Shown here in pieces: positions 2,474-20,745 of a stretch of 39,516 bases of DNA; the stretch's first letter is position 1; each line of letters starts with the position of its first letter. Origin of the DNA: a virus. Lineage: Duplodnaviria; Caudoviricetes. The notes under the pieces were generated by a model. The model made no database searches. It was not told the origin of the DNA and saw only the letters and a list, made by a program, of their open reading frames with translations. Made by a program: the position numbers and the translations under genes. The DNA lies in IMG/VR virus record IMGVR_UViG_3300022178_004106, positions 1 through 39,516 of that record, one strand, 5' to 3'.

Positions 2474-4180
2474 ATGGAGATCAACGGATTTGCGATTGAC
2501 GAGTTCAATCAACATAAGCTTGAAGAAGGAAAGAAGCAGGGTATATGCCCTGTTTGTTCCCCTGATAGAAAACCTAAGAATGTAAAAGCAAAGTGTGCTT
2601 CTTACGATTGGGAACGTGGTCTCGGTACTTGTCATAACTGTAATAAATCATTTCAATTGCATACCTACAAACGTAAAGGCAAGGCTGAAAAAGTATATTC
2701 AAAGCCAGAACCTATTGCTATACGTGCTGAGCCCGGTATGAAAGTTGAAGATTGGTTTAAAACAAGGGGAATTTCCAAACAGACCCTCACTGACTTACGA
2801 GTTACTGAGGGGCCTGAATGGATGCCACAAACCAGCAAGACCGAGAATGTAATAAAGTTTAATTACTTCATGGGTGGTGAATTAACAAACATCAAGTACC
2901 GCGATGGAAGAAAAAACTTTAAATTATATAAGGGAGCTGAGAAAGTATTTTATAATATAGATGCAACAGTTGGATTTGAATACTGTGTAATAGTCGAAGG
3001 CGAAATGGATGTGTTAGCACTACACGAAGCCGGCATAACAAACGCTATATCAGTACCAAATGGAGCAACTCTTAACAACAACAACCTTGATTATCTTGAT
3101 AATTGTATTGATTATTTTGAAGACAAAGAGAAGATCATATTAGCTGTTGACACAGATGATGCTGGACTAGCTTTACAAACAGAATTAATAAGAAGACTAG
3201 GATCTGAAGTTTGTTTTATAACAACCTTTGAAGACTGTAAAGATGCTAATGAATATCTACAGAAGTATGGAAAAGAAAAACTATCAGAGCGTATTACGGG
3301 AGCAAACCCTGTACCAATGGAGAACGTTACGACGTTTAGGGATATCGAAGACGAAGTTACCGAGTTTGTACGCAATGGCTTTACTCCAGGATTTCAGGTT
3401 GGGCTTGAGGACTTTGATAATATCTTTTCAACTTATACCGGTCAATTTATTACTGTCACTGGTATTCCTTCTTCCGGCAAGAGTGATTTTGTGGACCAAA
3501 TGGTTGTGGGATATAACCAACGTTACAATTGGAAAACAGCGTACGCTTCGCCTGAAAATGTACCGACCTTTTTACACGCCCACAAGCTAATGCGTAAGCA
3601 TTGGCAAGGTATGCCTGAAAAAGAAGATATTGGAGGAGAGAAGTGGAATCAAATAGCAGATCACTGTAATGCAAATTACTTCCATATCGACATGGAAAGA
3701 TATTCTTTAGATTCAATCTTAAAGAAAGGAGCAGAGCTTGTTAAGCGCAAAGGTATTAAATGTTTGGTGATAGATCCATTCAACAAGGTAAGAGACATAA
3801 ATGCTGTAAGCGATGATGTCAATAGATATACCATGGATTATCTAACTAAGATAGAAGTCTTTGCTAAAAAGTATGACGTGCTTGTATTCGTTGTCGCTCA
3901 CCCTACCAAGATGTATAAGAATCAAAAGACAGGCGAAATTGAAGAGCCTACAATGTATTCTATTAAAGGAGGAGGAGAATGGTACGATGCTAGTTATCAC
4001 GGATTATTAGTGCATAGAAACTATGAGGCTAACACTGTTAAAGTAAAAGTACTTAAGTGTAAGTTTCAAAACCTCGGTACTAATGGGGCTGAATGCCACT
4101 TTACTTGGGATACAAAGAGTGGATGCTACCTCCCTCTAAGTAAACCCGAAGAAGAAAAAATGCCTTGGGAAAATGGCTAA
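2474..4180 (+). CDS. Primase-helicase (T7 gp4/Twinkle-like)
   Basis: Zn finger CPVC..CHNC, TOPRIM EGEMD and DTDDAG, Walker A GIPSSGKS, Walker B LVIDP, SF4 motif VVAHP. Confidence 0.9.
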   Translation: MEINGFAIDEFNQHKLEEGKKQGICPVCSPDRKPKNVKAKCASYDWERGLGTCHNCNKSFQLHTYKRKGKAEKVYSKPEPIAIRAEPGMKVEDWFKTRGISKQTLTDLRVTEGPEWMPQTSKTENVIKFNYFMGGELTNIKYRDGRKNFKLYKGAEKVFYNIDATVGFEYCVIVEGEMDVLALHEAGITNAISVPNGATLNNNNLDYLDNCIDYFEDKEKIILAVDTDDAGLALQTELIRRLGSEVCFITTFEDCKDANEYLQKYGKEKLSERITGANPVPMENVTTFRDIEDEVTEFVRNGFTPGFQVGLEDFDNIFSTYTGQFITVTGIPSSGKSDFVDQMVVGYNQRYNWKTAYASPENVPTFLHAHKLMRKHWQGMPEKEDIGGEKWNQIADHCNANYFHIDMERYSLDSILKKGAELVKRKGIKCLVIDPFNKVRDINAVSDDVNRYTMDYLTKIEVFAKKYDVLVFVVAHPTKMYKNQKTGEIEEPTMYSIKGGGEWYDASYHGLLVHRNYEANTVKVKVLKCKFQNLGTNGAECHFTWDTKSGCYLPLSKPEEEKMPWENG

Positions 4181-4427
4181 GAAAAAAGCAAGTATGATGG
4201 GAGCTCACATTCCCAGTGAAGAAGAAGAGCAGGCTAGACGCTGGTGTATTAATAACAATATAAGAATATCACCATCGGCTGTAGGCGCCGGTACCCCAAC
4301 AAGATGGGTGCTAGTGTTAGATTTAAACGGCAAGATAGTAAATGCTCCTGACCAAGTAAGCCGGACAGAAGTGTGGGTAAAAATGTACGAGTATTATATG
4401 TATTATTATAAAAAATCAAATCAATGA
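4173..4427 (+). CDS. Hypothetical protein
   Basis: 84-aa ORF overlapping both neighbours in the operon. Confidence 0.6.
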   Translation: MAKKKASMMGAHIPSEEEEQARRWCINNNIRISPSAVGAGTPTRWVLVLDLNGKIVNAPDQVSRTEVWVKMYEYYMYYYKKSNQ

Positions 4428-4696
4428 TGACTAAAAAACAAATGGATTCCGACGATGCAATGCTAATCGAACAATTAAAAATGAAAACAAAAGAAGTAAC
4501 ATTCAGAGATCCAATTATTGAAAAAGTATGCGATCAACTAGTAAGCAGATCCGATGTGGGATATAAAAAGTATGGTGTAACTTTAGACGAAGATTCGCCG
4601 GACTTACAGAAGTGGTTACAACACTTGCAAGAAGAATTACTAGACGCAGCTAACTACGTGGAAAAACTAAAAAGCATATTACCTAAGCATGATTAA
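4424..4696 (+). CDS. Small all-alpha NTP pyrophosphatase-like (MazG-superfamily) protein
   Basis: GYKKYG...WLQHLQEELLDAANY with an EExxD acidic metal-binding helix; directly upstream of the TS-like gene. Confidence 0.5.
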   Translation: MMTKKQMDSDDAMLIEQLKMKTKEVTFRDPIIEKVCDQLVSRSDVGYKKYGVTLDEDSPDLQKWLQHLQEELLDAANYVEKLKSILPKHD

Positions 4697-5513
4697 TATT
4701 GAGGACAAATACAGAGAGCTTATGGCAGAAGTACTCGACAGAGGAGTTGCTAAAGAAGATAGAACTGGAACTGGAACGAGATCTGTGTTCGGAAGAACAA
4801 TCAAGCATGATATGTCAATGGGCTTCCCTATACTTACAGGAAAGAAGATAAGCTTTAATGCTGCAAGAACTGAATTGCTGTGGATATTAAACGGCAGGAC
4901 AGATCTAAAGTATCTTGAAGACAATGGGGTTAAATACTGGAGACCAGATTATGAACGCTCAGGTAGAACAGATGAAACGTTAGGCCCAGTATATGGCAAG
5001 CAATGGCGTGATTTTAAAGGTGTAGACCAGCTTAAAAACCTTGTTCATGCTATACGTGCTAATCCTGACAGTCGTCGTATGATGGTTTCAGCTTGGAATC
5101 CTGCTGATATGCCGGATATGGTTTTACCTCCTTGTCATTATGCTTTTCAGGTTTATGTAAATGATGGCGTTATAGATCTAATGTGGCAACAAAGATCCGC
5201 TGATATTTTTCTTGGCCTGCCGTACGATATTGCAATGTATGGCTTACTCTTAGAGATGTTGGCCAAAGGCTCTGATTTGAAGCCTGGACAGCTAATAGGA
5301 CAGCTTGGAGACTGTCATTTGTACAACAATCATTTGGATCAAGCCAGAGAATACTTAAATAGGCCTAACAGAGCATTACCTAAGCTCGAATTAGAAAGAG
5401 GGCTAAGTTATAATCTACTAGGCGGATTAAATATCCCAGAAGATTTTGAAATTAAATTATTAATCTACAACCCTTACCCGGCAATAAAAGCGCCGCTGAG
5501 TGTTGGCAAATAA
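4689..5513 (+). CDS. thyA: Thymidylate synthase-family enzyme with Asn-to-Asp specificity change (candidate dCMP methylase/hydroxymethylase)
   Basis: DRTGTGT, ELLW, GPVYGKQWR, DSRR, LPPCH, QRSAD and HLYNNH are all present, but the sequence reads LGLPYDIAMY where canonical ThyA has LGLPFNIASY. Confidence 0.85.
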   Translation: MINIEDKYRELMAEVLDRGVAKEDRTGTGTRSVFGRTIKHDMSMGFPILTGKKISFNAARTELLWILNGRTDLKYLEDNGVKYWRPDYERSGRTDETLGPVYGKQWRDFKGVDQLKNLVHAIRANPDSRRMMVSAWNPADMPDMVLPPCHYAFQVYVNDGVIDLMWQQRSADIFLGLPYDIAMYGLLLEMLAKGSDLKPGQLIGQLGDCHLYNNHLDQAREYLNRPNRALPKLELERGLSYNLLGGLNIPEDFEIKLLIYNPYPAIKAPLSVGK

Positions 5514-5521
5514 AAATAAAT

Positions 5522-6343
5522 ATGTATTATATTTATCACATACCTAATAAAAAGATCGGAGTTACACGTGATCTTAATAAGAGGGTTACGAAGGAGCAAG
5601 GCTATACTTCAGACGAATACGAGGTTCTATTTACAAGCGAAGATATAAATTATATATCTGATATGGAGATAGAACTTCAAAAGTCTTATGGCTATAAAGC
5701 GGACTTCAATAGTTACAAAATATTATCTAATCAATTTAATAAAAAAAATAATAAAATGTCAATAAACATTACAGACCAAACAGTAACTTTTCCAGTAGGA
5801 AAAACGGATTTAAAAGAATACCTTGCTAAAAGCACAGGGTTAAAACTGTCTATAGATGGCTCTAAGGTAACTCTTAATCAAAAAGAGCAAGACTGGATAT
5901 TGAAAAATGCACGTACTTCACACTTTAGAAACTCAAGATCATACGTTTATAATAAAACGTTGTTATCATTCGTAGACGAGCTAAGGAAAGAAAAGCTGTT
6001 TAAAAAAGCTAAGGAGTCTAGTGCGGGTGACTTAGCAACTATATTTACTCCATCAAGTTTTGATCTGATACGCGAGTGGGCTGAAGAAAGAGGTATATAC
6101 AAATTAGGTGATTCTAAAACACAATACGTAAAGCTCATGGAAGAAGCTGGTGAATTAGCTAAAGCGCTTCTAACCAAGAATAATCGCGAGATAGTTGACT
6201 CTATTGGTGATATGGTTGTTGTATTAACTAATCTAGCCAAGTTAGAAGGGTATGATATAGAGCACTGTATTGATGCCGCTTACGACGAGATCAAGAATAG
6301 AAAAGGATCTATGACTAACGGAACGTTTGCAAAAACCCTGTAA
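5522..6343 (+). CDS. Fusion of N-terminal GIY-YIG-like domain and C-terminal MazG-like NTP pyrophosphohydrolase
   Basis: N-terminus YYIYHI..KKIGVTRDLNKR...E resembles GIY-YIG; C-terminus KLMEEAGEL..EIVDSIGDMVVVL..IKNRKG is a MazG-like motif. Confidence 0.7.
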   Translation: MYYIYHIPNKKIGVTRDLNKRVTKEQGYTSDEYEVLFTSEDINYISDMEIELQKSYGYKADFNSYKILSNQFNKKNNKMSINITDQTVTFPVGKTDLKEYLAKSTGLKLSIDGSKVTLNQKEQDWILKNARTSHFRNSRSYVYNKTLLSFVDELRKEKLFKKAKESSAGDLATIFTPSSFDLIREWAEERGIYKLGDSKTQYVKLMEEAGELAKALLTKNNREIVDSIGDMVVVLTNLAKLEGYDIEHCIDAAYDEIKNRKGSMTNGTFAKTL

Positions 6344-7074: not shown

Positions 7075-7256
7075 CAAACGACGAAATGAAAGTCCAGATG
7101 GAGACCATTAGTTTCTTTGTAGACGAAATACTTAGTGACTTTAATAGAGTCGATATGAGCGTTAAAAAAGCTGATATGCTAGCTCACATGGAATACTGGA
7201 GAGCAACATTACAAACAATTAAATACATGATGAAAGTAGATGGGATTACGAGATAA
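7071..7256 (+). CDS. Hypothetical protein
   Basis: 61-aa ORF coupled to its neighbours. Confidence 0.55.
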   Translation: MTNDEMKVQMETISFFVDEILSDFNRVDMSVKKADMLAHMEYWRATLQTIKYMMKVDGITR

Positions 7257-8208
7257 AAGAATACCTTACAAGCCGTTTGAATACCCTGAGTATTATACTG
7301 AGGGTTGGCTTAAACAAGCACAAGCATTTTGGTTACACACCGAAATATCGATGCAAAGTGATATTAAAGATTGGAACGAGAAGTTAGATGACAAAGAGAA
7401 AAACCTAGTGGGCAACATCCTGCTAGGCTTTGCTCAGACTGAATGCGCAGTATCTGACTATTGGACGCAGAATGTAGTAGGATGGTTTCCTAAATACGAA
7501 ATACAACAAATGGCTATGATGTTTGGATCTCAGGAGACTGTACATGCTGTAGCTTACAGTTACTTAAACGAAACGCTAGGACTAGAAGATTATGAAGCAT
7601 TTTTACATGAGCCTGCCACAGCCGATAGATTTGATAATTTGGTCGCTTATAGCGGTGATTCTAATATCGGTGTTGCGAAATCACTTGCGGTATTCAGCGC
7701 CTTCGCGGAAGGTGTTAGTTTATATTCTGCTTTTGCTGTCTTGTATTCTTTTCAGTTACGTAATTTACTTAAGGGAGTAGGGCAACAGATGAAGTGGTCA
7801 GTGAGAGATGAATCATTACACAGCAAGATGGGTTGTAAACTATTTCGCGATATGTGTGATGAAGACGATCAACTACTGCACTTATGTCGGGAAGACATAA
7901 TAGAAGCTGCCGAAATAATGGTTAAGCTGGAGACAAAGTATATAGATAAGATGTTTGAAATGGGTGACATTGAAGGTATATCCGCAAACGATCTTAAACA
8001 CTTTATAAAGAAAAGAACAAATGAAAAACTTGTGGAACTTGGTTACGTCGACCTGGGATCGTATTTTGCGTATGACCCCAATGCAGCGGGCAATCTTGAT
8101 TGGTTTTACCATCTTACCGGGGGCGTTACCCATACTGATTTTTTCGCGCTTAGGTCGACAGATTACTCGAAAGCAGGTGAGGGAGAAGACTTTGAAGACA
8201 TTTGGTAA
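7240..8208 (+). CDS. nrdB: Class I ribonucleotide reductase beta subunit
   Basis: Ferritin-like ligands E68, ETVH (E99/H102), FAEG, RDESLH; radical Tyr in HAVAY; C-terminal DFF..Y. Confidence 0.92.
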   Translation: MGLRDKRIPYKPFEYPEYYTEGWLKQAQAFWLHTEISMQSDIKDWNEKLDDKEKNLVGNILLGFAQTECAVSDYWTQNVVGWFPKYEIQQMAMMFGSQETVHAVAYSYLNETLGLEDYEAFLHEPATADRFDNLVAYSGDSNIGVAKSLAVFSAFAEGVSLYSAFAVLYSFQLRNLLKGVGQQMKWSVRDESLHSKMGCKLFRDMCDEDDQLLHLCREDIIEAAEIMVKLETKYIDKMFEMGDIEGISANDLKHFIKKRTNEKLVELGYVDLGSYFAYDPNAAGNLDWFYHLTGGVTHTDFFALRSTDYSKAGEGEDFEDIW

Positions 8209-8225
8209 ACTAAAAAATAAATAAA

Positions 8226-8441
8226 ATGAAAGAACAAACTTTAATGAATATGAAGCATGACATGGGCAAAATAGCCGAAGCTCTGCACAATAATATACAA
8301 AACATAGTACATATAAACACGTTAACTCAGGGCTTGTTAGAGACCATTAAATTGATGCCAGGGTACAAGGAAGCTATAGATAAATTATTAGAAAACCAAG
8401 CTAAACAACCAGACGTAGATGTGGAACAAAAATTGGATTAA
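8226..8441 (+). CDS. Hypothetical protein between nrdB and nrdA
   Basis: 71-aa helical ORF with an A-rich start context. Confidence 0.6.
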   Translation: MKEQTLMNMKHDMGKIAEALHNNIQNIVHINTLTQGLLETIKLMPGYKEAIDKLLENQAKQPDVDVEQKLD

Positions 8442-10140
8442 AGGAGATGATTACCCTGAGTGGGGTGATACAGAAGTATATAAGAAAACTATATCAGGAG
8501 GATATTTATATGATGGAGAAACACCAAAAGAAGCATACCATAGGGTATCTAAAACAGTTGCTCGTAGGTTATACAAGCCGGAAATGGCGGAAACGTTCTT
8601 CCAATACATTTGGAATGGTTGGCTTTGCCTCGCTAGCCCAGTATTATCTAACACAGGTACTGATCGGGGTTTGCCTATTAGCTGTTTCGGGATTGATGTG
8701 GCTGATAGCATCCAAGATATAGGACAAAAGAATTTAGAAATGATGTTACTCGCTAAGCATGGCGGTGGAGTTGGCGTTGGTATTAATCAAATTAGACCCG
8801 CTGGCAGTAATATAACAGGTAATGGAACATCAGATGGAGTCGTACCCTTCGCTAAAATTTTTGACTCAACAATTCTCGCAACTAATCAAGGATCTGTCCG
8901 TCGCGGAGCTGCCTCAGTTAATATCAATATTGAACATGGAGATTTCGAACAGTGGCTTGAGATTAGAGAACCTAAAGGGGATGTCAACAGGCAGTCACTT
9001 AACCTTCATCAGTGCGCAATTGTTGGTGATAAATTTATGCGAAAACTTGAACAAGGAGATGCAGATGCAAGGACTCGATGGAGTAAACTACTTAGAAAGC
9101 GAAAAGCAACTGGAGAACCGTACATTATGTTTAAAGGGAATGTTAACAAAGCAAATCCAGAAGCATATAAAGAAAATGGATTAAAGGTTCACATGACTAA
9201 TATATGTTCAGAGATTACATTACACACCGATGAAAGCCACAGTTTTGTATGTTGCTTATCATCATTAAACCTAGCTAAATATGAAGAGTGGAAAGATACT
9301 AACCTTATCTATGACGCCACGTTCTTTCTTGACGGAGTTATGGAGGAATTTATTCAAAGAGCCAAGGGGTTACGCGGATTCGAAAATGCTATACGATCTG
9401 CGCAGAAAGGGCGAGCATTGGGCTTGGGAGTCCTTGGATGGCATACGTATCTCCAAGAGAAAGGTATTCCTTTCGAAGGTTTATTATCTCAGTTTGAAAC
9501 TAGGAAGATATTTTCGCAAATCAAAATTGAAAGCGAAAGAGCCTCTATGGATCTTGCTGAAATTTATGGAGAACCTTTATGGTGTGCTGGTACTGGTATG
9601 CGTAATACTCACTTGCGTGCTGTTGCTCCCACTGTTTCTAATAGCAAGCTTAGTGGAAATGTTTCTCCGGGAATAGAGCCATGGGCTGCTAATGTATTCA
9701 CAGAGCAAAGCGCTAAAGGTACTTTTATTAGGAAAAACCTAACACTTGTTAAACTACTAGAAAAACATAACTTAAACAATGAAAAAACATGGAATAAGAT
9801 ATTGGCTGACGGTGGTTCAGTACAGGATATTGACGGGTTGGATGATATTACCGTTGGTGATCATAACATACCTGCCAAAGAAGTTTTTAAGACATTTAAA
9901 GAGATCAATCAGCTGGAACTCATTGCCCAGGCCGGATTAAGACAACAGTATGTAGATCAGTCTGTTAGTTTAAATCTTGCTTTTCCAGCGGAGGCAACTC
10001 CTAAATGGCTTAACAAAGTACACATGGAAGCTTGGAAGAAAGGTGTTAAAACCTTATACTATACAAGAACAGAAAGTGTGCTGCGAGGGGATATTGCCGC
10101 GTCCGCAATGGATGAGGATTGTCTCGCATGTGATGGATAG
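8419..10140 (+). CDS. nrdA: Class I ribonucleotide reductase alpha subunit (no ATP cone)
   Basis: PISCF, KHGGGVG, QGSVRRGA, TNICSEI active site, AVAPT, VDQSVS, KTLYY, C-terminal CLAC. Confidence 0.93.
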   Translation: MWNKNWIKGDDYPEWGDTEVYKKTISGGYLYDGETPKEAYHRVSKTVARRLYKPEMAETFFQYIWNGWLCLASPVLSNTGTDRGLPISCFGIDVADSIQDIGQKNLEMMLLAKHGGGVGVGINQIRPAGSNITGNGTSDGVVPFAKIFDSTILATNQGSVRRGAASVNINIEHGDFEQWLEIREPKGDVNRQSLNLHQCAIVGDKFMRKLEQGDADARTRWSKLLRKRKATGEPYIMFKGNVNKANPEAYKENGLKVHMTNICSEITLHTDESHSFVCCLSSLNLAKYEEWKDTNLIYDATFFLDGVMEEFIQRAKGLRGFENAIRSAQKGRALGLGVLGWHTYLQEKGIPFEGLLSQFETRKIFSQIKIESERASMDLAEIYGEPLWCAGTGMRNTHLRAVAPTVSNSKLSGNVSPGIEPWAANVFTEQSAKGTFIRKNLTLVKLLEKHNLNNEKTWNKILADGGSVQDIDGLDDITVGDHNIPAKEVFKTFKEINQLELIAQAGLRQQYVDQSVSLNLAFPAEATPKWLNKVHMEAWKKGVKTLYYTRTESVLRGDIAASAMDEDCLACDG

Positions 10141-11793: not shown

Positions 11794-14700
11794 TTATTTA
11801 TTTTTATTAGCTTCTTCTTTTTCTTTTCTTTTTTTAGCTAGCGCAGCTCTAAACCTTTCATTTTCTACATACGCCAATGAATCTTTTTTCTTTTTGGTTT
11901 TAGCTCTTGTATTTCTAGATTTTATTTTTCTTCGCTGTCTTTTTTCCCAGTCTTCTAGGTCTCTATCATCTTGCGATAATTTAGATCTTCTGTCTTTCTC
12001 CTCCATTTCCTCTAGAAGTTTCTTCTGCTTTCTTTTTTCCTTGTTCTCTTCTTTTTTGCGCTCCTTATTTTCTGACTTTATCCTTACCTCTATTAAGTCG
12101 TTTTCCTCATTCTTAGATCCAACGTTCCAAGTCTTCCAACCTAATGCTAAAGCTATCCTTTGCCATGCAGTGTTTCTAGAATCTAGGGCTTCTGTTATTG
12201 AATTAAGTTCATCAACTACCCTAGCTGTTGGTATATTAAGTGTTCCTTCAATAAGATTACCTGCAGAAGACCACCTAGGACTTAAATTGAATTTACCGTC
12301 TATGGTCACATCCCAGCCTCTTTCGCTTATAACTTCTTTGTCAAACCTTTCTGTTTTAATAAAGTTAACTACCTTTCTTCCTTTTGATCCTACCGCTGGT
12401 GATATATTAAGTAGCGCTATAAGGGTTTTAGAATCGTCTGCTAAAAATCCTCTGTCTTCCTGCTTTTTGTATTCTATTATAGCGTTCTTTAAAATAGATA
12501 CAACCGCTCCAGGTAAACCAAATCCTCCTTTAAGAGTAGTGTCTACCATTGAATTTATAACCTGAAAAAGTTTTTTGTCTGTTTTTTCCTGCATAGTCAA
12601 ATCGCCTTCCTTTTCTTCATCGTCATTAAATCCTGGTATAAGCGCAAACATTGCGGCTTGTAGAGATGAGAAAATAGCATTTTGAATAGCCCCGTAATAT
12701 ATTATTTTACTGAAATTAGAAAAGTCACTTTGTGCTTGCGACATACCCGGCGTTCTTCTTCTGTTGTATATATCCTGAGCAGATTTTTTAATTGACCTAT
12801 TTAGCTGTATAGGTGTGTTCATGAAATTTAAAACAACCCTACCAAGTGAACTAGATTGATCTGAGGATATTAAAGCAGGATCACCTGATTGCTGTGTTTC
12901 ATCTGAAATTTTACTAAAGTCTTCAAAAGCTTGCTTTTCAGCTTCCTTCTGTGTATACTTAGGTTCTCCATCTGCACTCTTTTCTTTTAGATAAGTCTTT
13001 AACCTATTTCTATAGAAGGTAGCTCCACCTGATGCGATAGCAAAACTATCTACCATTTGTGTAGGTGTAAATCCTATTTTAAGTAAATAATTCAATGCCG
13101 CAGATGCTTTGTCCGTAGCTCCCGTGACTGCGCTGGCAAGTTCAGCCGCATTAACATCTGTTTTTAATCCTGACCTTCTTTGCTTTAATTTTGCTGAATT
13201 AAATATCATAGCGAAGTCAGACCAAAATTGCTTTTGATTAGCGAATGCTGCCGCTGCCTTCATTGGATTATTGTCACTCCAGTTTACAAAGTTTACAGTA
13301 GATAGCGTTTGTAGTAATGCAGATCTTCTGTTAAAGAACATGATAGCTCCAATTGAGTTGTTTAACCAGTTGTTCCATCTTTGCTCGTTCTTTTTCATAC
13401 CAGCAGCTCTATTCGTACCGTTTTTCATTCGGTATAGAATATCTTCAATGGCTTCTCTATGGTCTTTTCCGTATATAGCTTCTACCTTATTTAGGTTAGC
13501 CTCGCTAAAAATTAAATCGGCATTGTCAATAAACTCCTTAAGGTATTCTTTTCTACCCGCTTTTTCCGTAAAGTTATTAATATCGGACAATATGGTTTGT
13601 ACGTCCCAATAATCAGAAGGCTTAGACCATTCTTTTCTTTGAGACATTTGCAGCGCTCCTTTAGCGTAAGCTAATAGTTCAGCATCATTCTGAACATACC
13701 TAACAAGTTCTCTTTCTTGCTTTCTAGTAAGCCCAGGTATTTCGTACCCGGCTTTATTCCAAAGGTATACCCTTAGTGCTTGATCATGCGTATGCACCAT
13801 ACCCGGAATTTTTTTACCAAGCTTTTTCAGCACAGGTTTAAACTTCTTGTTAAGTGCCGCAAATCCATTTTTAAGTGATTGCTTAACTTGGTCCATTTCA
13901 TTTATACCTCTCCAGTACGGTGTAACCAAGGCATCTTGGAAAAACTTCTGGTCAGCCTCTCCCTGTCTACCTTTGCCTGCAAATGTATATTCCGTAAGGC
14001 CTCTGAAATCTTCAAGCGAAGAAGGCATCCATATTTTGAATCTGCCTTTGTTCTTACCCAGTTGACGCCCTTCTACCTCTGTTAATCTTTTTCTAGATTT
14101 TATACCGGAAGCTCTTTCGAGCATATCGTTAAAGTTTTTATTTGATGATCTACTGAATTTAACTCTAGATCTTTGTGTTGGGCCTTTAACATCAAACGTA
14201 TTAAGTATGTCTCTTACGGCCTTAGGTTGATTTTTAAAATCTACTATGGATAATTCTGTTTGTCCTTTAACGCCTTTGCCTTTAAGTGCCTTACCCACAG
14301 CTTTAACGTTGCCCATGTGATCGTCAGCAAAGTAGAAATCGTTGTAGCCATCGGCTATCTTACCAACCATCCAATCAGCTTTGGCTTGTGGCGATCCGTT
14401 ACCTAAGCCTGTGATGTTCTCTATAGGTATGTTTAGTCCTTCAGACTTTAAAAATTCGTGTATCGCTTTAGCGGAATTCGCTGGTCTTGCAGTTAAAACA
14501 AATATGTCTTTGTTGGTGTACTTGCCTTCTTTCTTTTGTGCTTCGCTAAACAATGGTCCTAGCTCGCCTTTCATTACTTTACTGAATTCACTAAAGTCAA
14601 ACTCAACACCTTGATCCAGCATTGCTTCGGATTTAGCGGCGAATTGAGCAGCGGTTAGCTTACCCTTCGTGCCGTCAGGCATAACGTATAGCACATTACT

Positions 14701-17700
14701 TTTCGTGCGGGCCAGCGTGTCGTCAAAGTCAAATACGCTAATACCCTTAGGCGTTTGAGAGTATTTAATGCTCGCTGTGTTATCTATAGCGGTCTGCTTC
14801 GTTATAGACAATTTGGTGTTAAGTATTTTGTCTATAGTAGCAATAGCAGATTCTTCATTAAACATATTAGAAGAACTTTTATCACCTAATGCGTTGGCGC
14901 TTATGTTCGTAACTTGTAGCTCAGCTACCATGTTTAAGGTAACAAATTTACCCTCTCCGGAATAATTTGATCTAGCTTTAATCCTAACTTCTGCGTCTCC
15001 CTTTAATTCTGGTAACCCCGTTCCCAAGTAATCGGGCCCCATAACAAAATTGCCTAGGTCAGCAAAAGTTATGTAATTTACGTCTTTAGAATTATACAAC
15101 GTTGAGGCAATATCAAGCCCCCCTTCGACAACAAACTTTTGTTCAGCTCCAAGAAGCAAAGGCTGTATTATCTCATGATAATACCAAGAAGGCATTTTAT
15201 ATCCTAAATTTTCTCCTTCGTCTTTTATTATACGATCTTTAGGATCTAGTTTTTTAGTATTACCATTCTTGTCTACGTACGTGTTAGTTTTAAATGATTT
15301 TTTTATTATATCTACAATGGTTTCTAATTCTTTATTTTCTTTTATTTTTTCAACCAATGTGTTTCCAAAATCAGATGGGACTGCGCTTCTGCCCACGTAT
15401 GTTTTAGCAGTATCAAACCATTTAGATATATACACAGTGGCTATTCTAGCAGTTTTCCCTCCTTTTATTTCCCAGTTTACGTTTTCCCCGTCTACCTGAA
15501 AGGCTAAGTCCGGCTTAAAAGAATCTTTTTGTACTCCTTTTTGTATTATAGAAAGTCCAGGCATTGCTCCTGCTAACTTATTAATTAAGTCCACAACAAT
15601 TTTTTCTTTGCTTTGCCAATCCTTTTTTATATACTTACTTATTGCAAGATTGATAGGCGTAACAAGGTTTTCGTTAGCCCACGCTTTTTCTTCTTGGTTT
15701 AATTTGCTAAGAAAATCGGATTGAAATTTTTTACGGGCTCTTGCGGTTCCAAAACCAGTAGACCCACGGAATTGTATAGCTAGCTCCCGTCCTCTTTGTG
15801 GCGTGACCCCTTTAGAAAACTTAATGTTTCCCCTGTCAATATCTCTTTCTATTTTTTCTATAAAGTTTTCAGCAAGCACCGCCCCCAGTCTTTCTTGATT
15901 GTTTTCAAACGCTTCACTTATATCACTAGCAGGATCTGCTAAATCAGCAGAGAATATTTCAAATGAAATTTCTTCACCCATAGCTTTAGCCAACGCTTCT
16001 TTTCTACCTCTTATTGGATTACCAGTTTCATCTAGTACTTGCGATAAAAACTCTTGATCTGTTACGGCTCTATTTACATTAGGCACTCTTCTAGTGAGCT
16101 CAGCCCCAGATGTTCTACCAGCATTATCAGTGCTAGTGGTTTCTCTGTCTATTTTTTTGCCAACCCAAGCAGGATAGGATACATATCTGCCATCTATCTT
16201 TTTTTGTATAGCTTGAGGTATTCCACCGCTTCCGTCTTTACCCATTAAGAATGTAGTGGTAAGATTTTCCAGTATGACCTTTTTGTTTTTAAGTAAAAAC
16301 TTTCTAAGCTTCAGGTCTTTTTTACCGCCCATAGCCTTTTTAAGGTCTATATCAGCCTGTTTACCCATTTCGTACTGTATCTCAGCCATAAGCGGAGTTA
16401 TTGTACGATTGCTAGATATAGCGACATCCATTCTAGTTTTTAAAGTACGGATTGTCGATTTTAGTTTATTACGGATGGCATCGATAACCTCTGTAGATAC
16501 CACGCTAGCCTCTGTGAATTTTCTAAACTTAGGTTTTTCTTTTACTTCATTTGAACTTTCTTCTGCTACGATACCTTTAGCGGCTGTTACGTCTTCCGTA
16601 AAGGTGTTTTCAGTCACTCTACCAGTCTTTAACGCACCTCTCATTCTATTACCTAGCTGAGCCATTGTATAGCCGAATAAGGAGTCGTTTTTAGCTGGAT
16701 CAAACTTCTTTATATAAGGTATAAGACTAGCTATAGTTTCGCTAACCATGTTATCCATTTCAAACCCCGGAAGATTCGTAAGATTAACTATATTGTTACC
16801 TGCTGTTTTAAATGCCTTTACTTTAGAACGGATCATGCCCGCTAAAACTTCATATATAGCCCCTTCATTAGGGTTAAAACCATCTGGATTGTTACCTATA
16901 GCGTCTAGTTTCTTTTTAGACTTTGCAGTAACATCACTTAGGCTTTGCTCATCTTTTTTAGATGCTTGCGGTGCATCAATATCAAGTTCTTTTTTAGCTT
17001 TAGACTTAGGCTTCGGCTTGGCTGCCGCTGTTTTAGGAGGATTTTCAATGTTTTCTAATTCCTCTTCTAGCTTATCTATTTTTCTGTCGTGAGTATCCTG
17101 GTCTATAAAGCCCTGCATTAGATCATCGCTTATTTCATCGATCTCTGCGTCAATAGCCTCCATCCTGTTTTCCTCTGCCTCAGTAAGCTTTCTTGACCTA
17201 GACAAAGAAACGTCTTCAGTGTCTTCAGGATTTTTAGCACTTTTCTCTACTATTGGTCTTGGCTTTTTGTTGTATTTTTGCCCAAAGTGAGCAGCTTTGT
17301 TAAAGTCCCTTACAAAGAAATACGCGTCTTTACCGGTTTTAAAGTATTCGGTATCCTTACCATTGGCTCCTAATAAGAAAGCGTTTACAAAAGCTTTTAT
17401 TTTTACTAGCAAAGGAGGATTGGGCTTAAACCCGTCAGCAAAAATATCGGACATGGCATTCAACGCTTCTTCATAGTAGTTAGATGATCCTTCGTAGCTC
17501 TCGTCTAGTCTGAATTTAATTTTAGCATATAAATTTTTATCCGTTTTTTGCAAAAAATCTAAAAGATCTTCTCCGGCCTTGTCTATTGCTTTTTGGTTTC
17601 CGCCGTAGTTTTCTTGAGCATATTTATGCAGTATTTCGTGAGCATAAATACCTACCCTACCGTTTTTAGCTGCTTTATTTATGTCTACTATTATCTTATT

Positions 17701-20700
17701 AGTATTAGGTATAGCCATACCTTCAACCACTCCGCTTTCTATCGCTTCCCTTAGAGTTTGAGTACCTCCTTTTTCAGCAGGCTGGTCCAGCAAGTCCCCT
17801 TTGCCTATTTCTTCAAAGGCAGCAATAATATCTTCTTTTGATTCAACAGTTATTACGTCTACGTCTAATCCCGCTTGTTTTGCGAAAGCAATCGCATTAG
17901 CTTTGCCTGCTTCTATTTTTTTACGATAAGCAGCTTCTTGAAATTTTTGAGCGGCTAACGCTTTTACATCGGCATCTGTAAACTTTTTATCTAAAGCCTT
18001 TAGCTCAGCCCTAGCGTTATCATAACCTATTTGCTTATTTTTACTATCTAGGCTTTCATATTGCTGTGCAATTTGCTCTATACTAGTGCCAACCAACATT
18101 TGATTTCTGTACGCGTCGTATCCTTGCGTAAGATCAAAAGATAGTTTGTTTTCAACAGCTCTTTCTTTTAATTGAGATCCTAACAAAGTTTCTCTTTGCT
18201 TGTCTAGCTTATCAAAATCGGATTTTAATTGATCTTTATAAGCTGTAAGCTTTGACGCACTCAAACCCTGATAGGCTGCCTGCATCAATTTCTTAGATAT
18301 AAGTCTTTTTTTCCTATTTATTTCTCCAAGTTCAAGGATTTGATCTGCTGGTAGCCCCCCTTTAAAAGCATCCAGTATATCTTGCTCTATTTCAACGCCT
18401 TCTTTTACAAGTTTATCTATTTCCTGCTGCACATTAGCAGGTAATTCTAAATTAAGTTCGCTTAGATTGTTTATATTTTGAATATCAACCCCTGTCAAGT
18501 TGGATATTTTATTAACTATATCTCGCATTGCAGCCTGCTGCTGCTGAGTTGCTGCTTCTGACTGCAAACCAGCTGACACTGCTTTAATAGAATTCAAAGA
18601 TGTCATACCTCCCCCCATGAAAGCTCCTTGTGCGAATGACTCTAGTCCACCTTTAAATAAGCCCTCGCGATCTGTAATGGCGTCAAAAAAGTTCTTATCT
18701 TCATCCATTAAGTATATTTCACCAAAGTTCTGCACAATAGTGGTGCCTAATTCCGAACCTCCTTCTCTAAATGCTCCTTTAACAAGTCCTTTGCTCCCGG
18801 TATATATGCCTTGACGGAGAGTTGCGGTTGGCAGCTGTTTTATACCTCTACCTATGTTCTTAAGGATAGTCATTGTACCTATTTTTTCAAAAAACACTTC
18901 CGCAAATCCAGTTAAAGCGGTATTGCTTAGCACTCTCCAATCCGCTATATTAAGCGCTTTGGTGTCTTTTTCCATTTCAGATTCCCTAATAGCTATCTCC
19001 AAGGGGTCTGCGTCGGGATTACTGTCTAGCCATTTTTTGTTAAGTAACATTCTGCTAGCTGCCTCCTTTTGAGTTATTGCATTACCCTCTAATACACCAC
19101 CGGCTCCGCTCGCAAAAAACAACGGCAGAGCTAAAGGCCCTGTTGCAGCCATAGATAAAGATGGGGCTAAGTTTACTGTAGAATTCATTAGCCAGCTACC
19201 TACATCTGTTGCATTTCTTATTTCGTCAACGTCTATAGCGTTTTGGTTATTAGCTGTTTTTGCGGCTAAATCCTGAGACAACGAAGTAGAACCTATTTCC
19301 GCGTCTAACTGTTCGGATATTTGCCTTAAAGGGACATAGTCCACACCTGGCAAAATAGCGTATTGATTTTCTCCCACATAGCTAGAAAGAGTCATTGCTG
19401 CAAAACCAATGGTCTGCCCCAGTGAACTAAACCCTAAATTTAACTGGGTCATTCTATTGTAGTTCTTTTTAAGATCAGCTATAGCTAATGGAATGGTTTC
19501 TGCCCTGTCTAGCAAGCCTATTTTTTCAGCTTTGCCCTGCATTGCCTGCACTCTACCCTGCTTGTCTAATAATTCAAGCTGCTGATTTTGTAAGCTAACA
19601 TATTCTTCTTGTGTAGGATTAGCTTCGTATTTTTCAATGGCGATATCAAATGCGTCTACGTCAGTTCTAAAATCCTCTATAGTTGTGCCTAGATTAGCTA
19701 TTGCTTTATTCTCATCAAATACCAAAGCCGTGTAATCTAATCTTTCTTCTGGGGTAAGATCTGCGATATAATTTCTAGACTTTTTATTTACTTCTTTTTG
19801 TTTTCGGTTTATATTCCAGGCTGCAAGTGTAGAATCATCTACTTCCGGTATTACGCCACCCGCTTTCCATATTTTATAATTTTCAAATTCATTTGGGTTA
19901 GAAAAGTTTTCTGGCCCTATTTCTACGGCGCTACTCCTCCCGCCCCTTGAGCTGAGCAGCTGAGCGTCCAACTCCATTTGTTTTACATCTTCAAACTCAT
20001 CAACTTGTTCCTCTCTGAATAGATCTCTTTCTTCTTTTTCAGACAGATCTTCTACTTTAGTAGCTTCTACATAATCGTTAGCAAATCCTACGCCTACATT
20101 TTTCCTAGCCTTTTCGGTGTAATTAACGTCCGCATTTTGTTTTATAAAGCTATTAAGCTTTGCTATATTTATTTTTAATTGCTCGTCAGTAACGTCCTTT
20201 CCTACTTCGGTAATATTATCGCCACCAAAAAACTCATCTACGTCCATGCCTCTTAAAAGCCCCTTCCTAAGTGCTCTAGCTTTCGTAAGCGGATTGCCAC
20301 TTAAAAGTAAATCACTAAAGCCTAAATCTTCTTCCGCTCCTTTAGTTAATTGAATAGCATCAAGATCATTATAGGTGCTAGTGGTGTCTACTGTTAAGCC
20401 AACGGAGGCTAAACGATCATACATTTTAGCAACTAGTTCATCTTCAGATAGCCCTTTTGATTCTTCAAAGGTAAAATAATACGGTGTAAGAGCATCCTCA
20501 ATTTCTTCTTGCTCTACTGATTCCGAAGAAGTATCTTCCAACACGTAATCCCCACTCGATGCTGGTGCTACTTGAGGAGTTACAGACGCATCGGTCTCCG
20601 CATCTCCGTTCTGAAAATTTTCAGTAGGTGGTGTTTCTTCAACGAGTACCGCGCCTGGGTGTTCCGCTAAAAATTTATCTAAATATTCGGGCTTTACATT

Positions 20701-20745
20701 AAATTGCTTTGCGTTTATATCTGAAGATACTTTATATCTAGGCAT
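11794..20745 (-). CDS. Giant (2983 aa) internal virion/ejection protein, polyvalent type
   Basis: Third of three ascending-size genes after the tail genes; Gly/Ala hydrophobic segments; HEILH, KKFDP sigma2-like, PDL..EIK and DFDDT HAD motifs. Confidence 0.75.
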   Translation of the reverse strand: MPRYKVSSDINAKQFNVKPEYLDKFLAEHPGAVLVEETPPTENFQNGDAETDASVTPQVAPASSGDYVLEDTSSESVEQEEIEDALTPYYFTFEESKGLSEDELVAKMYDRLASVGLTVDTTSTYNDLDAIQLTKGAEEDLGFSDLLLSGNPLTKARALRKGLLRGMDVDEFFGGDNITEVGKDVTDEQLKINIAKLNSFIKQNADVNYTEKARKNVGVGFANDYVEATKVEDLSEKEERDLFREEQVDEFEDVKQMELDAQLLSSRGGRSSAVEIGPENFSNPNEFENYKIWKAGGVIPEVDDSTLAAWNINRKQKEVNKKSRNYIADLTPEERLDYTALVFDENKAIANLGTTIEDFRTDVDAFDIAIEKYEANPTQEEYVSLQNQQLELLDKQGRVQAMQGKAEKIGLLDRAETIPLAIADLKKNYNRMTQLNLGFSSLGQTIGFAAMTLSSYVGENQYAILPGVDYVPLRQISEQLDAEIGSTSLSQDLAAKTANNQNAIDVDEIRNATDVGSWLMNSTVNLAPSLSMAATGPLALPLFFASGAGGVLEGNAITQKEAASRMLLNKKWLDSNPDADPLEIAIRESEMEKDTKALNIADWRVLSNTALTGFAEVFFEKIGTMTILKNIGRGIKQLPTATLRQGIYTGSKGLVKGAFREGGSELGTTIVQNFGEIYLMDEDKNFFDAITDREGLFKGGLESFAQGAFMGGGMTSLNSIKAVSAGLQSEAATQQQQAAMRDIVNKISNLTGVDIQNINNLSELNLELPANVQQEIDKLVKEGVEIEQDILDAFKGGLPADQILELGEINRKKRLISKKLMQAAYQGLSASKLTAYKDQLKSDFDKLDKQRETLLGSQLKERAVENKLSFDLTQGYDAYRNQMLVGTSIEQIAQQYESLDSKNKQIGYDNARAELKALDKKFTDADVKALAAQKFQEAAYRKKIEAGKANAIAFAKQAGLDVDVITVESKEDIIAAFEEIGKGDLLDQPAEKGGTQTLREAIESGVVEGMAIPNTNKIIVDINKAAKNGRVGIYAHEILHKYAQENYGGNQKAIDKAGEDLLDFLQKTDKNLYAKIKFRLDESYEGSSNYYEEALNAMSDIFADGFKPNPPLLVKIKAFVNAFLLGANGKDTEYFKTGKDAYFFVRDFNKAAHFGQKYNKKPRPIVEKSAKNPEDTEDVSLSRSRKLTEAEENRMEAIDAEIDEISDDLMQGFIDQDTHDRKIDKLEEELENIENPPKTAAAKPKPKSKAKKELDIDAPQASKKDEQSLSDVTAKSKKKLDAIGNNPDGFNPNEGAIYEVLAGMIRSKVKAFKTAGNNIVNLTNLPGFEMDNMVSETIASLIPYIKKFDPAKNDSLFGYTMAQLGNRMRGALKTGRVTENTFTEDVTAAKGIVAEESSNEVKEKPKFRKFTEASVVSTEVIDAIRNKLKSTIRTLKTRMDVAISSNRTITPLMAEIQYEMGKQADIDLKKAMGGKKDLKLRKFLLKNKKVILENLTTTFLMGKDGSGGIPQAIQKKIDGRYVSYPAWVGKKIDRETTSTDNAGRTSGAELTRRVPNVNRAVTDQEFLSQVLDETGNPIRGRKEALAKAMGEEISFEIFSADLADPASDISEAFENNQERLGAVLAENFIEKIERDIDRGNIKFSKGVTPQRGRELAIQFRGSTGFGTARARKKFQSDFLSKLNQEEKAWANENLVTPINLAISKYIKKDWQSKEKIVVDLINKLAGAMPGLSIIQKGVQKDSFKPDLAFQVDGENVNWEIKGGKTARIATVYISKWFDTAKTYVGRSAVPSDFGNTLVEKIKENKELETIVDIIKKSFKTNTYVDKNGNTKKLDPKDRIIKDEGENLGYKMPSWYYHEIIQPLLLGAEQKFVVEGGLDIASTLYNSKDVNYITFADLGNFVMGPDYLGTGLPELKGDAEVRIKARSNYSGEGKFVTLNMVAELQVTNISANALGDKSSSNMFNEESAIATIDKILNTKLSITKQTAIDNTASIKYSQTPKGISVFDFDDTLARTKSNVLYVMPDGTKGKLTAAQFAAKSEAMLDQGVEFDFSEFSKVMKGELGPLFSEAQKKEGKYTNKDIFVLTARPANSAKAIHEFLKSEGLNIPIENITGLGNGSPQAKADWMVGKIADGYNDFYFADDHMGNVKAVGKALKGKGVKGQTELSIVDFKNQPKAVRDILNTFDVKGPTQRSRVKFSRSSNKNFNDMLERASGIKSRKRLTEVEGRQLGKNKGRFKIWMPSSLEDFRGLTEYTFAGKGRQGEADQKFFQDALVTPYWRGINEMDQVKQSLKNGFAALNKKFKPVLKKLGKKIPGMVHTHDQALRVYLWNKAGYEIPGLTRKQERELVRYVQNDAELLAYAKGALQMSQRKEWSKPSDYWDVQTILSDINNFTEKAGRKEYLKEFIDNADLIFSEANLNKVEAIYGKDHREAIEDILYRMKNGTNRAAGMKKNEQRWNNWLNNSIGAIMFFNRRSALLQTLSTVNFVNWSDNNPMKAAAAFANQKQFWSDFAMIFNSAKLKQRRSGLKTDVNAAELASAVTGATDKASAALNYLLKIGFTPTQMVDSFAIASGGATFYRNRLKTYLKEKSADGEPKYTQKEAEKQAFEDFSKISDETQQSGDPALISSDQSSSLGRVVLNFMNTPIQLNRSIKKSAQDIYNRRRTPGMSQAQSDFSNFSKIIYYGAIQNAIFSSLQAAMFALIPGFNDDEEKEGDLTMQEKTDKKLFQVINSMVDTTLKGGFGLPGAVVSILKNAIIEYKKQEDRGFLADDSKTLIALLNISPAVGSKGRKVVNFIKTERFDKEVISERGWDVTIDGKFNLSPRWSSAGNLIEGTLNIPTARVVDELNSITEALDSRNTAWQRIALALGWKTWNVGSKNEENDLIEVRIKSENKERKKEENKEKRKQKKLLEEMEEKDRRSKLSQDDRDLEDWEKRQRRKIKSRNTRAKTKKKKDSLAYVENERFRAALAKKRKEKEEANKNK

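What the first reader, a model, noticed from the sequence alone, without database searches (positions are those of the whole stretch)
4689..5513. ThyA homologue with Asp at the Asn177 position: probable dCMP methylase rather than thymidylate synthase
Seen: the motif reads QRSADIFLGLPYDIAMY, with Asp180 encoded by GAT at 5226-5228. Canonical ThyA has QRSxDxFLGLPFNIASY. The other recognisable TS catalytic motifs are intact. Established: this Asn (E. coli N177) selects dUMP, the N177D change converts TS into a dCMP methylase, and T4 dCMP hydroxymethylase has Asp at this site. Inference: the phage makes 5-methyl-dCMP (or 5-hydroxymethyl-dCMP) and may replace cytosine in its genome; automated annotation would call the gene thyA. 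An alternative is an m5dCMP-deamination route to dTMP.
Basis: partly seen in the sequence, partly recalled or inferred. Interest (0 to 1): 0.85.

Follow-up and report, generated by a model that had tools for sequence, protein, structure and literature searches.

The report
Phage dCMP methylase in swappable slot
An uncultured aquatic phage carries a thymidylate-synthase look-alike with the cytosine-selecting Asp, which likely makes 5-methyl-dCMP to shield the phage DNA from restriction; close relatives fill the same gene slot with a predicted hydroxymethylase instead, and genomes that have the slot keep short cytosine-containing restriction sites that most relatives without it have purged.

Summary
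Confirmed. ORF 4689-5513 is a ThyA homologue with Asp180 (GAT, 5226-5228) at E. coli Asn177, and Asp is present in 120 of 120 close homologues. Leu143 and Asp169 are kept, so the likely product is 5-methyl-dCMP. The enzyme class is known (Xp12), and this scan noted it before on other genomes.

New here:
(1) In relatives picked by primase, the same slot holds one of three distinct enzymes, all Asp and none Asn. One has the T4/MilA hydroxymethylase signature. The type changes at least 15 times on the primase tree.
(2) A GIY-YIG-like/MazG fusion (5522-6343) is in 34 of 34 genomes with the slot and 0 of 12 without.
(3) In the virion arm, 0 of 20 slot genomes purge a C-containing 4-bp palindrome, against 17 of 27 slot-less relatives. 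Slot genomes still purge GATATC and CATATG, whose prototype enzymes cut modified DNA.

This favours modified cytosine in the DNA over dTMP supply. Against: His147 is kept; no kinase, polymerase or deaminase was found; GATC is not avoided; nothing was assayed.

The parts
4689..5513 (+). ThyA-family enzyme, 'type A', predicted dCMP C5-methylase (E62, Y102, L146, C149, H150, R169, S170, D172, Y179, D180, H210, Y212 = E. coli E58, Y94, L143, C146, H147, R166, S167, D169, F176, N177, H207, Y209)
5226..5228 (+). GAT codon, Asp180, the base-selecting position (E. coli Asn177)
5522..6343 (+). Three-domain protein: N-terminal GIY-YIG-like (T5orf172/MUG113-like) domain (about 1-60; invariant Y5, G13, R21, E49), unassigned middle domain (about 80-165), C-terminal MazG-family NTP pyrophosphatase (about 175-273); candidate dCTPase plus nuclease
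   Evidence: in 34 of 34 slot-bearing and 0 of 12 slot-less genomes
4424..4696 (+). Small two-helix protein (KYGxT..QEExxD motif; phrog_11184; the conserved start is probably 4481). Its subtype tracks the methyl versus hydroxymethyl enzyme type; the family also occurs in slot-less relatives
2474..4180 (+). Primase-helicase; context, used as the unbiased marker to pick relatives
7240..10140 (+). Class Ia ribonucleotide reductase beta (7240-8208) and alpha (8419-10140) genes; context, dNDP supply

Best explanation
The gene encodes a ThyA-family enzyme with Asp at the base-selecting site that likely methylates dCMP to 5-methyl-dCMP, so that 5-methylcytosine likely replaces much or all of the cytosine in the phage DNA and would protect it from host restriction enzymes. 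Shown: the residue pattern; its conservation; that the slot is filled only by Asp-type enzymes of three kinds; the linkage to the MazG fusion; the retained palindromes. From established chemistry: Cys149 attacks C6, CH2-THF gives the one-carbon unit, Asp180 reads cytosine N3/N4, and Leu146 correlates with a methyl rather than hydroxymethyl product. Inferred: the neighbouring MazG domain hydrolyses dCTP to dCMP, which feeds the enzyme and removes the competing nucleotide; the GIY-YIG-like domain may cut unmodified host DNA; host kinases and host polymerase carry 5-methyl-dCMP into DNA, since none was found on the phage; dTTP comes from host ThyA, perhaps also from host deamination of part of the 5-methyl-dCMP.
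For: (a) Signature: D at 177, L at 143, D at 169 in 79 of 79 unique type A sequences. Published rules: N177D gives dCMP preference, L143 correlates with a methyl product, D169N marks 5-hydroxy-dCMP synthases (PMC13326640 passages). Five of 7 natural Asp-type phage enzymes gave 5mdC in E. coli (bioRxiv 10.1101/2024.12.05.627091 passages). Xp12's enzyme shares the PYD motif. (b) Slot exchange: of 158 primase-picked loci (records partly repeated) 58 hold type A, 82 type B, 12 type C, 6 none. Asp is in 50 of 51 unique B (1 truncated) and 4 of 4 C sequences, Asn in none, although 134 of the 150 nearest family representatives are Asn-type. Type B has D143/T147/D177 and its best solved relative is the CMP hydroxymethylase MilA (E 1e-20). 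The type changes at least 15 times on the primase tree (79 rows). (c) MazG fusion in 34 of 34 slot-bearing and 0 of 12 slot-less genomes. Xp12 also has a PRA-PH/MazG-type gene next to its enzyme. (d) Restriction footprint. Virion arm: 0 of 20 slot genomes versus 17 of 27 dereplicated slot-less relatives have a C-containing 4-bp palindrome under 0.1 of expectation; median pooled O/E 0.88 versus 0.72. Replication-arm loci: 0 of 41 A and 0 of 22 B, versus 2 of 2 slot-less lineages inside the same primase clade. Window: CCGG 54 observed / 46 expected, GATC 126/106, but GATATC 2/9 and CATATG 0/10 under a codon-shuffle null. In 20 slot genomes 10 of 14 purged sites are GATATC or CATATG; EcoRV and NdeI cut fully hydroxymethylated T4gt DNA, while HpaII, MspI, BstUI, HaeIII, HhaI and Sau3AI are blocked on both T4gt and Xp12 DNA (PMC7653180 supplement).
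Against: No assay and no modification data. His147 is kept in 79 of 79 type A sequences, whereas Xp12 has Pro, type B Thr, type C Tyr, and position 147 was the other top position separating modified from unmodified contigs (PMC8670742 section 11). Two of the 7 tested Asp-type enzymes gave no 5mdC. No nucleotide kinase, DNA polymerase or DHFR turned up in Pfam/PHROG scans of representative ORFs from the fetched slot genomes or in a P-loop scan, and no PF00383 deaminase in 89 records, whereas Xp12 has DHFR, deaminase and polymerase. GATC is not avoided in type A (O/E 1.15) although MboI/DpnII cut Xp12 DNA completely; TCGA (TaqI also cuts) is only mildly low (0.84). The pooled 6-bp test is mixed: GGCGCC, GAGCTC and GGATCC, all blocked by 5mC, are also low in type A. 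Ten of 27 slot-less relatives purge no 4-mer by the threshold used. Only two slot-less lineages lie inside the primase clade, the p-values ignore kinship, and hosts may differ. The Leu143 rule is loose: Xp12 aligns Asn there. A sister phage (MW202828) and 3 of 32 other relatives carry ThyX, so dTMP supply is selected in parts of this family.
Confidence: 0.65

Rival explanations
1. The enzyme makes 5-methyl-dCMP, but only part of the cytosine in the DNA is replaced, because the phage lacks its own kinase and polymerase and relies on pool competition.
For: No kinase or polymerase found. C-containing palindromes are still slightly low (pooled O/E 0.87-0.90; CGCG 0.79, GGCC 0.69 in type A), and several 5mC-blocked 6-mers are low.
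Against: A MazG fusion is kept in 34 of 34 genomes, as expected for dCTP exclusion. No 4-mer is purged in any of 41 type A loci.
Confidence: 0.12
2. The enzyme is still, or also, a dUMP methylase (thymidylate synthase) despite the Asp; one enzyme supplies dTMP or both products.
For: His147 and the rest of the ThyA site are intact; best solved matches are ordinary ThyA; it is the only ThyA-family gene in 43 of 43 records and no ThyX is present in 62 records; some sister phages carry ThyX. That engineered N-to-D mutants keep some dUMP activity unless the His is also removed is recalled, not from a call (search 108 found nothing).
Against: The slot is exchanged with a hydroxymethylase-type enzyme and never with an Asn-type ThyA. 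Most slot-less relatives have no thymidylate synthase of either kind (0 of 32 ThyA, 3 of 32 ThyX). This reading does not explain the palindrome pattern.
Confidence: 0.1
3. The product in DNA is not plain 5mC: type A hydroxymethylates like type B, or the base is modified further by an unrecognised enzyme.
For: Type A swaps freely with type B. GATC is not avoided, which fits 5hmC (MboI blocked on T4gt) better than 5mC (MboI cuts Xp12).
Against: Type A has Leu143 and a ThyA-like folate site, type B has Asp143. The small partner ORF splits into an A/C subtype (143 of 143 calls) and a B subtype (77 of 77), which suggests different products. No glycosyl- or carbamoyltransferase was found in the scanned ORFs.
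Confidence: 0.08
4. 5-methyl-dCMP is only an intermediate: a host deaminase turns it into dTMP and the DNA stays unmodified.
For: Xp12-type phages obtain dTTP by deaminating 5mdCTP. PF00383 is found in the Bacteroides control genome.
Against: No phage deaminase in 89 records. The hydroxymethyl-type replacement would give hmdUMP, not dTMP. It does not explain the retained palindromes.
Confidence: 0.05

Closest known systems
Xanthomonas phage Xp12 dCMP methylase (ThyA homologue, MT664984; complete 5mC substitution) and Pamexvirus/Bosavirus relatives
   Same: ThyA fold, catalytic Cys, Tyr-Asp at 176-177, Asp169; a MazG/PRA-PH-type pyrophosphatase gene next door.
   Different: Only 31% identical. 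Keeps His147 and Leu143 (Xp12: Pro, Asn). No linked DHFR, dCMP-type deaminase or DNA polymerase I. The pyrophosphatase is fused to a GIY-YIG-like domain. Trees place it among ordinary ThyA, apart from Xp12, but the AU test does not reject a shared clade (p 0.17).
Asp177 thymidylate synthase homologues of MetaGPA modified contigs (PMC8670742; bioRxiv 10.1101/2024.12.05.627091)
   Same: Same diagnostic residue and predicted 5mdCMP product; co-occurrence with pyrophosphatase and, in some relatives, ATP-dependent ligase genes.
   Different: The tested enzymes were chosen for linkage to a PF00383 deaminase, which this clade lacks (0 of 89). Whether any tested enzyme belongs to this clade could not be seen (preprint supplements closed; motif search of the eLife supplements found none).
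T4 cytosine-replacement system (gp42 dCMP hydroxymethylase, gp56 dCTPase, gp1 kinase, EndoII GIY-YIG nuclease) and MilA
   Same: Type B relatives in the same slot carry the D143/D177 signature and match MilA and gp42. The fusion protein joins a GIY-YIG-like domain and an NTP pyrophosphatase, the two kinds of activity that T4 keeps in EndoII (PMC2764454 passages) and dCTPase.
   Different: The window's enzyme is ThyA-like, not gp42-like. No kinase, polymerase or glucosyltransferase was found. Nuclease and dCTPase activity of the fusion are untested.
Canonical ThyA (E. coli, L. casei) and their engineered N177D/N229D mutants
   Same: 43-48% identity to the nearest Asn-type enzymes; all catalytic residues kept.
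   Different: Natural, fixed Asp at 177 and Tyr at 176. The mutant papers were seen only as cited in other papers (PMC50205 not held).
Elemovirus (Flavobacterium phage elemoA), Maribacter phage Panino, Cellulophaga phi38:1/Calle
   Same: Nearest cultured phages by terminase (46%) and capsid (37-45%); similar gene order.
   Different: elemoA has no annotated thymidylate synthase and purges CCGG, CGCG, GGCC and CATG. No cultured phage has a homologue of this enzyme above 49% identity among the best 60 rows.

Membership tests
Thymidylate synthase superfamily (PF00303) | Profile match over the curated cut-off with catalytic Cys, Arg-Ser, Asp169, His207, Tyr209 | tested here: met
   292.8 bits against cut-off 24.3; residues invariant
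Canonical ThyA (dUMP methylase) | Asn at E. coli position 177 | tested here: not met
   Asp180 in the window and in 79 of 79 type A sequences
Canonical ThyA (dUMP methylase) | Makes dTMP from dUMP, complements thyA | not testable with these tools
   needs an assay
Phage dCMP C5-methylase (Xp12 type) | Asp at 177 with Asp169 kept | tested here: met
Phage dCMP C5-methylase (Xp12 type) | His147 replaced, as in Xp12 | tested here: not met
   His in 79 of 79 type A; Pro in Xp12. The position is associated with modification but not shown to be required
Phage dCMP C5-methylase (Xp12 type) | Linked NTP pyrophosphatase of the MazG/PRA-PH superfamily | tested here: met
   PF03819 over cut-off; Z 9.9, rmsd 2.9, 81 residues to 1vmg; 34 of 34 genomes; substrate unknown
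Phage dCMP C5-methylase (Xp12 type) | Linked PF00383 deaminase and phage DNA polymerase | tested here: not met
   deaminase 0 of 89 records, 39 of them at least 90% complete; no polymerase in scanned ORFs of slot genomes
Phage dCMP C5-methylase (Xp12 type) | One clade with the Xp12 enzyme | tested here: inconclusive
   31% identity; apart in free trees, AU p 0.17
Phage dCMP C5-methylase (Xp12 type) | 5mC in virion DNA | not testable with these tools
   only the indirect palindrome footprint
dCMP hydroxymethylase (T4 gp42, MilA) | Acidic residue at 143 together with Asp177 | tested here: not met
   window enzyme has Leu; met by type B relatives, 50 of 51 (rule)
5-hydroxy-dCMP synthase (RB69 gp48 type) | D169N | tested here: not met
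   Asp kept in all three types (rule)
GIY-YIG nuclease domain (ORF 5522-6343, N-terminus) | Two Tyr/Gly strands, conserved Arg and Glu, beta-beta-alpha-beta-alpha topology | tested here: inconclusive
   invariant Y5, G13, R21, E49; topology fits; Atlas look-alikes T5orf172 at 0.96-0.97; Pfam T5orf172 E 0.02 for the window's domain, over the cut-off in 1 of 7 homologues tested; the fold searches were filled by the MazG domain. That T5orf172 belongs to the GIY-YIG clan is recalled

The most novel reading that the evidence does not exclude
A very large uncultured group of about 60-70 kb flavobacterial-type podophages runs a minimal cytosine-replacement system with no kinase, polymerase or deaminase of its own: one swappable dCMP-modifying gene, a single protein that fuses an EndoII-like nuclease to a dCTPase, and a small product-specific partner. 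Close relatives flip between 5-methyl- and 5-hydroxymethyl-cytosine genomes by exchanging one gene, as would be expected in an arms race with modification-dependent restriction, and loss of the slot is paid for by purging restriction sites. A DenV-like glycosylase may repair the resulting T:G or hmU:G mismatches.
Probability: 0.35. Interest if true: 0.75.

Novelty: new variant of a known kind. Interest (0 to 1): 0.5.

Why it matters
The enzyme class is known, so the Asp alone is not surprising. If the reading holds, one abundant aquatic phage group (about 12,000 stored stretches match its terminase patterns) has base-substituted genomes that annotation hides as 'thymidylate synthase', which also inflates claims of dTMP-supplying auxiliary genes. 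The methyl/hydroxymethyl exchange at one locus among close relatives gives a natural experiment on how DNA chemistry switches under restriction pressure. Retained versus purged palindromes offer a sequence-only proxy for modified genomes. An Asp177 enzyme that keeps His147 tests what is needed to turn ThyA into a dCMP methylase.

Tried and rejected
Read or assembly error: rejected. Cellular gene: a degenerate motif scan of 185,579 species genomes gave 15 MAG contigs; 13 carry other genes of the same phage module and 2 are too short to tell; the motif is narrow, so other cellular Asp-type enzymes are not excluded. Second ThyA, ThyX or PF00383 deaminase in the clade: none found; 'first look' filters may miss remote forms, and dCTP-deaminase families were covered only by the ORF scans. 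Kinase by P-loop motif: none convincing. CpG odds (0.81) and third-position base use: not informative. Pooled 6-bp palindrome test against the Xp12/T4gt cleavage tables: mixed. Independent origin of types A and C: free trees separate them, AU does not reject one clade (p 0.088). Fold search of the small ORF: no match at Z 5 or more. Middle domain of the fusion: no usable Atlas hit; DenV-like protein: no solved relative. Complex prediction of the enzyme with the small ORF: no answer. MetaGPA supplements: no clade motif found in 4 files. Sequencing runs: 24 listed, library on record for only one and no bisulfite or EM-seq label shown; Logan contigs carry no modification signal. The 32 phosphoesterase-picked control loci (28 purge a palindrome) are mostly not shown to be of this family and are given little weight. 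Literature searches found no paper on this clade's enzyme or on the slot exchange; the library lacks most subscription journals.

Full report
Observation. The ORF at 4689-5513 encodes a 274-residue thymidylate synthase homologue; residue 180 is Asp (GAT, 5226-5228) and aligns with the Asn that is invariant in dUMP-specific enzymes. Asp is in 120 of 120 listed homologues and 79 of 79 viral loci found by likeness to the query. An identical protein is in a second record, and a contig from another run matches 5076-5531 without a difference.

The genome. The window is a whole virus record, estimated 65% complete. It has a replication arm (sigma-like factor, ERF, exonuclease, primase-helicase, the enzyme, a MazG fusion, a resolvase-like nuclease, class Ia RNR) facing a podovirus virion arm. 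The nearest cultured phages are Flavobacterium Elemovirus, Maribacter Panino and Cellulophaga phi38:1-like phages (terminase 46%, capsid 37-45%). Ten of 15 MAG contigs with the motif are binned as Bacteroidetes or Flavobacteriia. The host is therefore likely flavobacterial; this is inference. Runs that hold the stretch are labelled marine, freshwater or aquatic where labelled.

What the active site predicts. Passages of PMC13326640 give three rules: Asp at 177 selects dCMP, Leu at 143 correlates with a methyl product while an acidic residue goes with hydroxymethyl, and D169N marks 5-hydroxy-dCMP synthases. The window's type (A) has D177, L143, D169 in 79 of 79 unique sequences. Passages of the mSCD preprint report that 5 of 7 natural Asp-type phage enzymes, and the Xp12 enzyme, put 5mdC into plasmid DNA. 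The Xp12 enzyme is 31% identical and shares Tyr-Asp at 176-177, but has Pro at 147 and Asn at 143. His147 is kept here, and section 11 of PMC8670742 names position 147 as the other top discriminator of modified contigs. That is the main weakness of a residue-only argument, so I looked for independent evidence.

Evidence 1, the slot. I picked relatives by primase instead of by the enzyme. In 158 such loci (records partly repeated) the position between the 84-residue ORF and the MazG fusion holds type A in 58, a short type B in 82, a third ThyA-like type C (about 36-38% identical to A) in 12, and nothing in 6. Five of the six are three records of two lineages in which a metallophosphoesterase replaces the enzyme, the fusion and the small ORF; one is cut off. 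Type B has D143, T147, D177 and its best solved relative is the CMP hydroxymethylase MilA. Type C has L143, Y147, D177. No Asn-type enzyme occupies the slot, although 134 of the 150 nearest family representatives are Asn-type. The types are interleaved on the primase tree: at least 18 changes among 84 dereplicated rows including the slot-less ones, 15 among the 79 with a fusion gene. If the slot served dTMP supply, ordinary ThyA should be among the replacements and a hydroxymethylase should not. Type B is clearly a different family; separate origins of A and C are suggested but not proven (AU p 0.088).

Evidence 2, the partners. ORF 5522-6343 has a C-terminal MazG domain (model pLDDT 86; Z 9.9 to 1vmg; weak Foldseek rows include mammalian dCTPase, E 0.012-0.03). 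Its N-terminal 60 residues have the topology and the invariant Tyr, Gly, Arg and Glu of a GIY-YIG-like domain, with weak T5orf172 matches. The fusion is in 34 of 34 slot-bearing genomes and 0 of 12 slot-less ones, one of which has a lone MazG domain. In T4, a GIY-YIG nuclease degrades unmodified host DNA and spares hydroxymethylated phage DNA (PMC2764454 passages); a like role here is a hypothesis. The small ORF 4424-4696 falls into two subtypes that follow the enzyme type without exception (143 A/C, 77 B; 6 changes on its own tree against 15 on the primase tree), while the fusion gene, which usually lies between them, does not follow (17 changes). Its function is unknown.

Evidence 3, the restriction footprint. 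A phage with modified C everywhere need not purge C-containing restriction sites. In whole or partial genomes, all 5 slot-less relatives examined have purged 4-bp palindromes (elemoA CCGG 0/12, CGCG 0/13, GGCC 0/24; MW202828 CCGG 0/26, GATC 0/202; G084 CCGG 0/32, CGCG 0/20; G083 CCGG 1/11, CGCG 0/7; G109 CGCG 1/12, TCGA 0/38), and none of 20 slot genomes has. With capsid-picked relatives that have no ThyA-family gene (0 of 32; 27 after dereplication), the virion arm shows a purged 4-mer in 17 of 27 (7 of 10 at least 90% complete) against 0 of 20. Replication-arm loci give 0 of 41 for type A and 0 of 22 for type B. A synonymous-codon null on 13 genomes agrees. Slot genomes do meet restriction: 10 of 20 purge a 6-mer, and 10 of the 14 events are GATATC or CATATG, whose prototype enzymes EcoRV and NdeI cut fully hydroxymethylated T4gt DNA, whereas the CCGG, CGCG, GGCC and GCGC cutters are blocked on T4gt and Xp12 DNA (PMC7653180, passages and parts 1-2 of 3 of supplement 2). 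For Xp12 DNA itself EcoRV had no site and NdeI was inconclusive, so this link is by proxy. Limits: only two slot-less lineages lie within the primase clade; most controls are other subclades that may have other hosts; p-values ignore kinship; GATC is not avoided in type A although MboI cuts 5mC DNA (Sau3AI does not); and the pooled 6-mer test is mixed.

What is missing. Each of 43 type A records (22 at least 90% complete) has one ThyA-family gene; none of 62 has ThyX; none of 89 has a PF00383 deaminase. I fetched 18 slot genomes that were picked by the enzyme or the primase, one more picked by terminase (G057, type B), and 3 slot-less ones. Family scans of representative ORFs (conserved clusters and larger singletons, not every ORF) and a P-loop scan showed no kinase, DNA polymerase, DHFR, glycosyltransferase or carbamoyltransferase in slot genomes. 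Xp12 carries DHFR, deaminase and polymerase near its enzyme (same layout in AXL1, PMC9206674 passages). So phosphorylation and incorporation would rest on host enzymes or on an unrecognised phage protein. This is inferred and is the largest gap.

Mechanism. Most likely: RNR and the MazG domain channel cytidine nucleotides to dCMP; the enzyme methylates it; host kinases make 5-methyl-dCTP; host polymerase builds 5mC DNA that resists most C-sensitive type II enzymes; dTTP comes from the host. I put extensive 5mC substitution at 0.65, partial substitution at 0.12, retained dUMP activity at 0.10, another C5 product at 0.08 and a pure dTMP route at 0.05.

Comparison and novelty. It works like the Xp12 dCMP methylase (named as such in PMC5175136 passages) but is not shown to be of that clade and lacks its deaminase and polymerase. 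The class is published, and seven earlier notes of this scan reached the same residue-based reading on other genomes; these are unchecked AI notes and add no support. A word search of the scan's notes for the hydroxymethylase and palindrome findings returned nothing. Searches found no paper on this clade, on the methyl/hydroxymethyl exchange or on the fusion. The primary mutant paper was not held, and the preprint's supplements, which list the seven tested enzymes, were closed and may bear on novelty. Verdict: real, likely a dCMP methylase, a new variant of a known kind; interest 0.5, carried by the swappable slot and the footprint rather than by the Asp.

Noticed in passing
L313:15810-16313 and homologues (phrog_624, weak PF03013); outside the window's record: A DenV-like (pyrimidine-dimer glycosylase family) gene is in 32 of 34 slot-bearing and 0 of 12 slot-less genomes. 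Xp12 has an HhH-GPD glycosylase two genes from its enzyme. Possible repair of deaminated 5mC/5hmC; confounded by clade and by incomplete controls.
   Followed up: partly
L232:7949-8587 (type B, 82 of 158 primase-picked loci): Predicted dCMP hydroxymethylase of about 213 residues in genomes with no recognisable sugar transferase or kinase: candidate plain-5hmC phages.
   Followed up: partly
L230:7954-8760 (type C): Second ThyA-like Asp177 lineage with Tyr at 147 in the same slot; a natural comparison for the role of His147.
   Followed up: partly
P0122-P0271: 15 of the 150 nearest 50%-identity ThyA cluster representatives have Asp at 177, 10 of them with His147 kept, scattered over the tree: the switch seems to have arisen many times.
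   Followed up: partly
L082:4140-4742 and homologues: Gp88-family gene (PF17338) in 7 of 11 type A, 3 of 3 type C and 1 of 5 type B genomes; ATP-dependent DNA ligase in 4 of 11, 2 of 3 and 5 of 5.
   Followed up: no
L090:15673-17223, L102:3714-3968, L096:18089-18685: Relatives carry GroEL, GroES and a second GroES-like gene as core genes; this part is missing from the window's record.
   Followed up: no
window 11794-20745 (-): 2983-residue virion-arm protein with no Pfam or PHROG match; by position a candidate internal virion (cargo) protein.
   Followed up: no
window 24588-30836 (-): Weak matches to crAssvirus muzzle and tail-ring families, suggesting a crAss-like tail.
   Followed up: no
G057:57718-58501 and G035:64937-65902: The GIY-YIG-like/MazG fusion matches in two pieces: two open frames in G057, one longer frame in G035.
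   Followed up: no
L212 (CBDICL010000005.1, 117 kb) with L209 and L220: Three type A modules lie on three contigs of one Flavobacteriaceae MAG; mis-binned phage or infected-cell bin not resolved.
   Followed up: no
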